Assembly (NCBI GenBank): GCA_964016885.1
Contig: CAXHJY010000412.1
Coordinates: 35,418-99,417, forward strand
Reading direction: 5' to 3'
DNA: 64,000 nucleotides
Source: Eledone cirrhosa
Taxonomy: Eukaryota
Both the position numbers and the translations under genes were made by a program. This document shows positions 60,683-61,909 of this stretch, piece after piece. Every line of letters begins with the position of its first letter. Position 1 is the stretch's first letter. The notes under the pieces are model-generated. The model did not search any database. It was not told the origin of the DNA and was given only the letters and a program-made list of their open reading frames with translations.

Positions 60683-61909
60683 ATTAATACAATAACAGAG
60701 ATAGTTTAAAGCTAATCTCTGACTGGTAACCATCTCACTCAACAAACATTAGGTTATATTTTAATATAAACCCAATTTAAGGGTTTGGGGTGCTAACAAT
60801 ATGTATTATGTCGAAAAGCCAGTTGTATTATTTTATGAGATATAAATAAAGTTAAAATATATCTCTCTTTCCAAACAATTGTTTCATTATAAGTTTTCTA
60901 CAAATTCGGAGAATATTTCTAGTTTATGTAGAAGCCTAATATACATTCATGTAAGAATATATTTAGGTGGGCGCTTATAAATCATCAGTGGATGCCCATT
61001 AAACCTTGATATAAGAAAAAACATTTCTTACCACGGTTAAAAATCATGTCCGTTAAGTTGCACCTTCCCGCATCGAATGACCGGCATATTTGAAAATCCA
61101 GCAGTTTTTGACTGAGGAAGTGTTATAGCGTCACTAAGCGGGAAGGGGAGACAACTACGATCCACGAAAGGAGGAAAAAAAATAATATACACGCGGGTTA
61201 ATCAGTTTATTCGAAAACATTATCAATCCAACGTGTTAAGAACTCAATTGAAATTAAAAAAATAAATATATGCGTGTATAAATTACACACGCATATAGAT
61301 ATTTTCTTAGGCTAAAATCAGAGGTTGTACCTGAATAAGAAACCGCATCTCGTAACCGTAGTAAATACGGAAAGTTATGCTTAGAAGGGCAAATGGGAAT
61401 GTAAATCACCGGCCGAATTAAGAGTAAAATATAAAACACACGCGGGTTAATTAGTTATTTCAAAACTAATATCAATTCCTCGTGTAAAGAACTCAATTAA
61501 TTTAAAAAAATAAATGTATGCATGTAATTATATACATAGGCATAAATATATTTTCTTAGGCTAAAAAACAGAGAAGTTACAACCAATAAAAACCACAATA
61601 TCGCACAACAGTAATAAATACGGAAAGTCAAATTTATAAGGTACCTGGAAATAAACACCTCTGGCCAATCAAGAGTAAAATATTAATACAATAACAGAGA
61701 TAGTTTAAAGCTAATCTCTGACTGGTAACCATCTCACTCAACAAACATTAGGTTATATTTTAATATAAACCCAATTTAAGTGGTTGGGGTGCTAACAATA
61801 TGTATTATGTGGAAAAGCCAGTTGTATTATTTTATGAGATATAAATAAAGTTAAAATATATCTCTCTTTCCAAACAATTGTTTCATTATAAGTTTTCTAC
61901 AAATTCGGA
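60683..61909 (-). mobile_element. Putative large retrozyme / non-autonomous PLE satellite: 999-nt non-coding unit as a 1.23-mer (228-bp direct repeats 60683-60910 and 61682-61909)
   Basis: Repeats offset by exactly 999 bp with about 3 differences; no substantial ORF; a complete hammerhead overlaps the left repeat and its 3' half lies in the right repeat; TA-rich flanks. Confidence 0.75.
60870..60992 (-). ncRNA. Type I hammerhead with an 80-nt loop II insertion
   Basis: TCCA-CTGATGA-TTTATAAG-[80 nt]-CTTATAAT-GAAA-CAATTG-TT|TGGA; predicted cleavage between 60874 and 60873. Confidence 0.75.

What the first reader, a model, noticed from the sequence alone, without database searches (positions are those of the whole stretch)
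60683..61909. 999-nt hammerhead-bearing non-coding unit integrated as a 1.23-mer: candidate large retrozyme / circular-RNA retroelement
Seen: 228-bp direct repeats exactly 999 bp apart with about 3 differences, no TG..CA LTR ends and no substantial ORF. A complete minus-strand type I hammerhead (60870-60992) has a predicted cut site at 60874/60873 that recurs at 61873/61872. The insertion runs 37 nt past the upstream site and ~190 nt past the downstream site. Known: animal non-LTR retrozymes are HHR-bearing tandem repeats, usually a few hundred nt, that yield circular RNAs and are thought to use Penelope-like RTs. Inference: a linear cut-to-cut monomer could not template a copy crossing both sites, so the template was probably a ~999-nt circle or multimer. 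That is unusually large for this class, and a possible helper PLE family is present in this window.
Basis: partly seen in the sequence, partly recalled or inferred. Interest (0 to 1): 0.9.

Follow-up and report, generated by a model that had tools for sequence, protein, structure and literature searches.

The report
Large hammerhead retrozyme family targeting TA-repeats
A 999-base non-coding repeat unit with a predicted self-cutting hammerhead ribozyme belongs to a family of thousands of scattered copies that share one fixed end beside TA microsatellites; it is likely copied, probably from a circular RNA, by a borrowed Penelope-type reverse transcriptase, which makes it a large variant of the known animal 'retrozymes'.

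Summary
The 1.23-mer is one young copy of a dispersed, non-coding family. Both hammerhead core halves match 2,982 times; units are about 610, 700, 740 and 1,000 nt. The 999-nt unit is a ~742-nt unit plus an internal ~257-nt duplication. The hammerhead is supported by covariation and is unusual: stem II opens into two conserved hairpins, and stem III is a covarying palindrome, which suggests dimer cleavage. Copies are not circularly permuted. In 51 of 51 loci the 3' end is fixed ~190 nt past the cut site, beside (TA)n in 50, while the 5' end varies (0.5-3.2 units): the Penelope-like footprint. Copies run through the cut site without pile-up, and inherited variants sit in both units of an insertion, which favours a circular template (~65%). 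An uncleaved linear multimer remains possible. Retrozymes up to 972 bp are already reported. No helper was identified, and RNA expression, cleavage and circles are untested.

The parts
60683..61909 (-). whole insertion, 1.23 units of a 999-nt non-coding hammerhead retrozyme
60683..60873 (-). 191 nt from the predicted cut site to the fixed 3' end (inferred internal RT start, abutting (TA)n); holds motifs conserved across ~70%-identical sister families (candidate RT-binding signal)
60870..60992 (-). type I hammerhead: stem I, CUGAUGA core, U.U at the base of stem II, GAAAC, palindromic stem III, predicted cut after GUU at 60874/60873
60896..60967 (-). two conserved, covarying hairpins inserted in stem II (branched stem II)
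60968..60998 (-). complementary UGGGC (60998-60994) and GCCCA (60972-60968): possible pseudoknot or inhibitory fold; conserved but without compensatory change
61177..61435 (.). first copy of the internal ~257-nt module
   Evidence: 76% identity to the second copy
61426..61686 (.). second copy of the internal module; absent from the 730-743-nt sister units
61682..61909 (-). 5'-truncated partial unit (228 bp) with the second cut site 61873/61872 and only the 3' half of the hammerhead
61908..61957 (+). 50-nt templated insert at the 5' junction, 49/50 identical to flanking DNA 62395-62444, 2-nt microhomology
60665..60682 (.). (TA)n-rich target flank at the fixed end; a second (TA)n run begins at ~61957

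Best explanation
This is one recent copy of a large, non-coding, hammerhead-bearing retrozyme family that is likely mobilised by a Penelope-like reverse transcriptase/endonuclease, most probably from a circular RNA template. Inferred cycle: more-than-unit transcripts are cut by the hammerhead, probably acting as a dimer through its palindromic stem III, and ligated to ~0.6-1.0-kb circles. A helper protein would nick (TA)n DNA, prime at one fixed AU-rich site ~190 nt downstream of the cut and copy around the circle until it falls off at a random point, giving 0.5- to >2-unit insertions with a fixed 3' end. Shown: the repeats, copy number, end pattern, conserved fold and absence of an attached ORF in the loci examined. 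Inferred: cleavage, circle, helper.
For: Fixed 3' end in 51 of 51 distinct loci, (TA)n beside it in 50, 5' ends spread over the unit, spans 0.51-3.17 units. The same cut-to-end distance (167-204 nt) in 54 of 61 outermost hammerheads of all subfamilies. Inverted 5' pieces in L041 and L174, as described for PLEs (PMC8557442). RNAalifold recovers the hammerhead fold; 98 cells with double changes vs 26 +/- 7.5 shuffled. The stem III palindrome centre varies AATT/GATC/GGCC/GACGTC, and the stem III oligo folds only as a dimer, -10.8 kcal/mol. Template continuous across the cut: 9 loci end exactly at the cut before (TA)n vs 4 at a control site, 18 vs 19 within 3 nt, among ~2,000 copies (p=0.27); 95 of 96 units cross it without an indel. 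Monomer bottleneck: at 41 variable sites adjacent units share the minor allele 101 times, with 44 discordant vs 198 expected if independent; variants shared between loci lie in both units (146 pairs) rather than one unit position (17 same, 10 mixed). 0 of 192 loci joined to a PLE ORF.
Against: No RNA, cleavage or circle was tested. A purified PLE RT primes internally on uncleaved RNA and does not need hammerhead cleavage in vitro (PMC11167929), and only 1 of 9 Xenopus retrozyme dimers cleaved in vitro. Nested folding predicts the GGGC/GCCC helix (P 0.74-0.99) in place of stems I and II (P ~0) in both circle and linear context. The window subfamily has a 4-bp stem I and a GUU site. Two of three long arrays (L017, L030) show difference patterns that fit DNA-level duplication, not multi-turn copying, so DNA exchange can also homogenise units. 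No helper shares the 3' end. Covariation counts are inflated by relatedness, and the core columns were fixed by my search pattern.
Confidence: 0.65

Rival explanations
1. Same non-autonomous PLE parasite, but the template is an uncleaved linear more-than-unit transcript primed internally; length is restored and units homogenised at the DNA level (unequal crossing-over, gene conversion), and the hammerhead does something else, such as trimming read-through RNA.
For: Internal initiation on unprocessed RNA in a PLE (PMC11167929); continuity across the cut fits equally; L017 has U0/U1 differences only at positions up to 648 and L030 has variants shared by the two inner units only, both fitting DNA duplication.
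Against: No excess of unit-position-specific shared variants (17 vs 10, p=0.25); private variants in both units in 10 of 36 insertions shorter than two units; no pile-up of 5' ends at one start site; dimer-type stem III conserved across families ~30% apart.
Confidence: 0.25
2. The unit is the long pLTR/3' UTR of an autonomous PLE whose ORF-bearing copies are rare and were missed.
For: Fixed 3' end, 5' truncation, (TA)n target and hammerhead are all PLE traits; only a few hundred of several thousand copies were examined and flanks were 1.5-3.5 kb.
Against: Read 5'-ward, every long copy returns to the start of the unit instead of entering an ORF; all 25 upstream same-strand PLE hits among 192 loci are separated by a microsatellite; the hammerhead model finds no match in the PLE loci searched.
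Confidence: 0.06
3. RT jumps end-to-end between cleaved linear monomers, building multimers without a circle.
For: A small number of copies do end exactly at the cut site (9-10 loci).
Against: Those ends are not in significant excess over a control site; junctions are seamless in 95 of 96 units; haplotypes agree on both sides of the cut (3 discordant vs 47 expected at q13-191, 26 vs 139 beyond).
Confidence: 0.04

Closest known systems
Metazoan non-LTR retrozymes (Cervera & de la Pena 2020, PMC7229834; Li, Clavereau & Pollet 2026, 10.64898/2026.07.22.740005)
   Same: Non-coding AU-rich tandem units, each with a type I hammerhead; no LTR; structured RNA (z -7.2); co-occurs with many PLEs.
   Different: Units of 0.6-1.0 kb versus ~170-400 nt in the invertebrates tested (but 51-972 bp reported in vertebrates); mostly dispersed 0.5-2-unit copies, not arrays; a strictly fixed 3' end in (TA)n; branched stem II; conserved terminal motifs. 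Circles are shown for the published families, not here.
PLE minimal hammerheads and pLTR partial tandems (Cervera & de la Pena 2014, PMC4209133; Craig et al. 2021, PMC8557442; Frangieh et al. 2024, PMC11167929)
   Same: Helix II 7-8 bp, helix I 4-5 bp, extra base at the 5' end of stem II, palindromic helix III; 5' truncation, partial tandems, inverted 5' pieces, (TA)n target.
   Different: No ORF; no 30-40-bp optional tail in the 51 loci mapped; U.U or A-U instead of G10.1-C11.1; two hairpins inside stem II.
Non-autonomous Chlamys PLEs such as MRC1 (PMC8557442)
   Same: Non-autonomous, pLTR-like partial tandems and head-to-tail multimers.
   Different: Those share 3' sequence with an autonomous family; no such partner was found here, and this element carries a hammerhead.
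Plant LTR retrozymes (PMC7761336)
   Same: 600-1000-nt spacing between hammerheads; non-coding.
   Different: Type III hammerhead, true LTRs, PBS/PPT and 4-bp TSD there; type I, no LTR ends and variable 5' ends here.

Membership tests
non-LTR retrozyme | type I hammerhead in each repeat unit | tested here: met
   (structure predicted, with covariation)
non-LTR retrozyme | head-to-tail tandem organisation, multicopy | tested here: met
   most copies hold fewer than two full units, and this window copy has only one complete hammerhead
non-LTR retrozyme | no protein-coding capacity, no LTR | tested here: met
   longest frame 66 aa; 0 of 192 loci joined to a PLE ORF
non-LTR retrozyme | RNA self-cleavage | not testable with these tools
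   only indirect: conservation and covariation; nested folding disfavours the active fold
non-LTR retrozyme | expressed as a monomeric circular RNA | not testable with these tools
   indirect genomic evidence only
non-LTR retrozyme | terminal homology to the pLTR of a PLE of the same genome (Li et al. 2026) | tested here: inconclusive
   none found among the PLE loci fetched, a small sample of 10,596 GIY-YIG candidates
autonomous Penelope-like element | RT plus GIY-YIG ORF between pLTRs | tested here: not met
Penelope-like insertion signature | fixed 3' end, 5' truncation, partial tandems, inverted 5' copies, microsatellite target | tested here: met
Penelope-like insertion signature | optional 30-40-bp tail | tested here: not met
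   fixed-end phase within 7 nt in 51 of 51 loci
plant LTR retrozyme / LTR element | LTRs with fixed outer ends, type III hammerhead | tested here: not met
viroid-like circular RNA with ribozymes in both polarities | ribozyme on both strands, rod-like fold | tested here: not met
   one polarity only; branched fold

The most novel reading that the evidence does not exclude
The family is a genomic record of rolling-circle, target-primed reverse transcription of ~1-kb ribozyme-made RNA circles by a Penelope-type RT from one fixed internal start site, controlled by a previously undescribed branched, pseudoknotted, dimer-acting hammerhead, with the conserved 190-nt segment as the RT-binding signal. 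That would give the first sequence-level evidence for the long-proposed circle-to-genome step and a compact cis-element for RNA-templated insertion into (TA)n.
Probability: 0.4. Interest if true: 0.75.

Novelty: new variant of a known kind. Interest (0 to 1): 0.55.

Why it matters
How animal retrozymes and PLE partial tandems get back into the genome is open. Circles have been proposed as templates (PMC4209133, PMC7229834), while the one in vitro PLE study finds uncleaved RNA used and cleavage dispensable (PMC11167929). A review notes that metazoan retrozymes show no conserved motif pointing to their helper (PMC7761336). This family has thousands of young dispersed copies, a fixed start site, conserved terminal motifs and several diverged subfamilies. 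Circle versus linear template and helper identity can therefore be tested by a genome census and simple RNA assays. The branched stem II also widens the known hammerhead architectures and shows why Rfam-type screens miss such motifs.

Tried and rejected
Rfam gave no hammerhead in the window or the unit. Sequencing runs: no RNA holder listed; the four contig runs laid (one study) show only subfamily variation and one joint skipping 270 nt. A plus-strand CUGAGGA at 61112 does not complete a hammerhead. The apparent link between the unit's 3' end and a PLE ORF in L106 was rejected: the PLE's other copies start at query 199-215, so these are two neighbouring insertions in one (TA)n, and the matching piece belongs to a 707-nt non-coding sister family. 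Upstream PLE fragments in L186, L190 and others are separated by microsatellites. The recurrent within-locus difference at q338 is an alignment artefact. A pile-up of ends at the cut site as evidence of in vivo cleavage is not significant. Long arrays as proof of multi-turn copying were rejected for L017 and L030. No Pol III A/B box match. The helper search by terminal motif, hammerhead model and relaxed core pattern found none. Pfam gave no hit for the window's PLE pieces. Literature searches octopus + hammerhead ribozyme and a five-term search for a multibranched stem II found no description; the host taxon in those searches was a guess from recall. Lunse et al. 2017 was not held and the supplement of PMC7229834 could not be read; either may list similar motifs or sizes.

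Full report
1. Observation. The direct repeats are real: 60683-60910 and 61682-61909, 999 bp apart, 3 differences in 228 bp. Read as a circle, the unit has no frame longer than 66 aa. Rfam reports no hammerhead, but a descriptor scan finds one on the minus strand and none on the plus strand of the unit. Its parts are stem I 60992-60989/60873-60870, core 60988-60982, stem II 60980-60974/60893-60887 and GAAAC 60885-60881, with a predicted cut after GUU at 60874/60873. The minus strand folds better than shuffles (z -7.2 vs -4.2 for plus, 20 shuffles each). New anatomy: an internal ~257-nt duplication (76% identity) and a 50-nt insert at the 5' junction copied from flanking DNA at 62395-62444. The upstream partial repeat holds only the 3' half of the ribozyme.

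2. A large family. The 3.0-Gb genome gave 3,213 and 2,582 first-look candidates for the whole insertion and for an internal piece, with scored copies 93-98% identical. A pattern made of both core halves matches 2,982 times (control 0), and a motif of the 3' segment 6,488 times (control 1); tandem units count separately. Unit lengths in fetched loci cluster at 975-1,030, 730-743 and 684-719 nt, with ~612 nt in L255 (self-match). The 707-nt family is ~70% identical over the hammerhead and 3' segment. The 730-742-nt units match the window unit minus the internal duplication, so the 1-kb size is a recent internal doubling.

3. The ribozyme. I aligned the window motif with 55 of the 70 motifs from 60 loci; inner tandem units and several damaged or redundant rows were left out. 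RNAalifold, given no structure, returns stems I, II and III and two hairpins branching from stem II. For my 39-pair structure 93.8% of cells pair, and 98 cells show double changes against 26 +/- 7.5 in shuffles; 9 pairs covary, in stems I, II, III and both hairpins. Caveats: related sequences inflate these counts, and the core columns were fixed by the search pattern. The stem III centre is palindromic and varies as AATT (42), GATC (14), GGCC (4) and a GACGTC-containing form (49) among 119 motifs. The innermost pair of the short forms cannot close within one molecule, and the oligo folds only as a dimer (-10.8 kcal/mol), as described for dimeric PLE hammerheads (PMC4209133, passages). A GGGC/GCCC helix between the stem I leader and the stem II junction is 88% paired but shows no double change. 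In nested folding it displaces stems I and II, so it is either a pseudoknot or an off-switch.

4. How it inserts. Of 60 loci were duplicates. In the other 51 the 3' end (ribozyme strand) lies within 7 nt of 60683 in all; (TA)n adjoins it in 50; the 5' end falls anywhere in the unit; spans are 0.51-3.17 units. The second set was chosen by an internal piece, so it is not biased for that end. Across subfamilies, 54 of 61 outermost hammerheads have (TA)n 167-204 nt past the cut. Two loci carry inverted 5' pieces. This is the PLE footprint of 5' truncation, partial tandems, inversions and (TA)n targeting (PMC8557442, passages and section 11), with a fixed start that is not an RNA end, as shown in vitro for a Poseidon element (PMC11167929, parts 1-2 of 4).

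5. Not an ordinary PLE tail. The genome is rich in RT/GIY-YIG PLEs (10,596 candidates). Of 194 element loci (some overlapping; flanks 1.5-3.5 kb), 192 held the terminal motif. Of these, 25 had a same-strand PLE protein match upstream, and all 25 were separated from the element by a microsatellite. Long copies loop back to the unit start. A covariance model of the ribozyme matched only family members among 86 sources, most of them PLE loci. No helper was identified. The window holds a young Neptune-like PLE (clade label from the linker motif), and a Hydra-like family shares the stem III palindrome, but neither shares the 3' segment.

6. Circle or line. (a) Cleaved linear monomers are rarely templates. 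About 2,000 copies carry the anchor just 3' of the cut (994 on one strand), yet only 9 loci end exactly at the cut before (TA)n against 4 at a control site, and 18 against 19 within 3 nt (p=0.27; anchors differ in subfamily breadth). One search gave 10 at the cut and 8 at a site 12 nt on. Of 96 units crossing the site, 95 have no indel. (b) Units of one insertion are more alike than different insertions (1.3% in 38 loci vs 2.4% among 59). They share lineage alleles (101 minor/minor pairs; 44 discordant vs 198 expected) on both sides of the cut. Variants shared between loci lie in both units (146 pairs), with no significant position-specific inheritance (17 vs 10). Ten of 36 insertions shorter than two units carry private variants in both units (18 variants, 8 of them in two loci of thinly sampled subfamilies). 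A purely linear lineage cannot lengthen or homogenise itself, so a monomer bottleneck is needed, and a circle supplies it. (c) Against: L017 and L030 show patterns expected of DNA-level duplication, while L049 looks like a native 2.2-mer, so DNA exchange is a real alternative; and PLE RT used uncleaved RNA in vitro. I put the circle at about 65% and linear multimers with DNA homogenisation at 25%.

7. Comparison with what is known. It works like, and on the testable features is, a metazoan non-LTR retrozyme (PMC7229834: passages, sections 14 and 17). The size is therefore at the upper edge, not outside. I found no description of the branched stem II or of a fixed-start, (TA)n-targeted footprint for retrozymes in searches (listings and abstracts). 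PMC13282606 has no mention of ribozyme or retrozyme (passages), PMC7761336 and PMC8490949 were seen as passages, one key paper was not held and one supplement was unreadable. The host taxon was not established. Two earlier AI notes on other genomes describe similar patterns; they are leads, not support.

8. Verdict. A real, young, high-copy retrozyme family, likely PLE-mobilised. It is a new variant of a known kind, notable for its ribozyme architecture and for making the circle-template question testable rather than for its size. Interest 0.55.

Noticed in passing
window 33540-36124 (-), second piece 23301-23534 (+): Young Penelope-like element (RT, CxxxxCxxC linker, GIY-YIG; Neptune-like by motif) interrupted by a stop and an inversion; 454 candidates, 6 of 24 fetched relatives 99-100% identical, a 756-aa open frame in L281, ends in (TA)n with an optional tail. 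Candidate helper by age and target only.
   Followed up: partly
window 22209-22257 (-), 22433-22481 (+), 22920-22958 (-), 23078-23127 (-): Four further small type I hammerhead motifs of other repeat families; the first two lie in an inverted pair.
   Followed up: no
L112-L140: Hydra-like PLE family (CxCX5C, CxxC and CxH motifs; 6,070 candidates) with a ~36-nt optional tail; its hammerhead has the same stem III palindrome and GUU site as this unit, which could allow mixed dimers or be chance.
   Followed up: partly
L300-L327: An unrelated hammerhead family (most of the listed rows of 388 pattern matches) with the same geometry, ~180 nt from cut site to (TA)n plus a second end ~80 nt further; no same-strand ORF link was established.
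   Followed up: partly
window 60974: Hypervariable non-CpG site at the end of stem II: G>A on the ribozyme strand in 16 of 84 units, discordant in 10 of 24 adjacent pairs and never in both; possible RT error or RNA-modification hotspot.
   Followed up: partly
window 62171-62491: Self-inverted (82%) MITE-like element that donated the 50-nt junction insert.
   Followed up: partly
window 63250-63457 and 63796-63909: Inverted repeat with 91-nt arms, 98% complementary, 26 nt apart, and a second palindromic repeat between (TA)n runs.
   Followed up: no
window 41057-47723: Several kb of low-complexity G/T-rich repeat giving long stop-free frames.
   Followed up: no
window 57398-57788: Three to four diverged copies of a 51-87-nt repeat at 72-132-nt spacing.
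   Followed up: no
L014 / L057, 5' junction: The insertion abuts a tRNA-like sequence.
   Followed up: no
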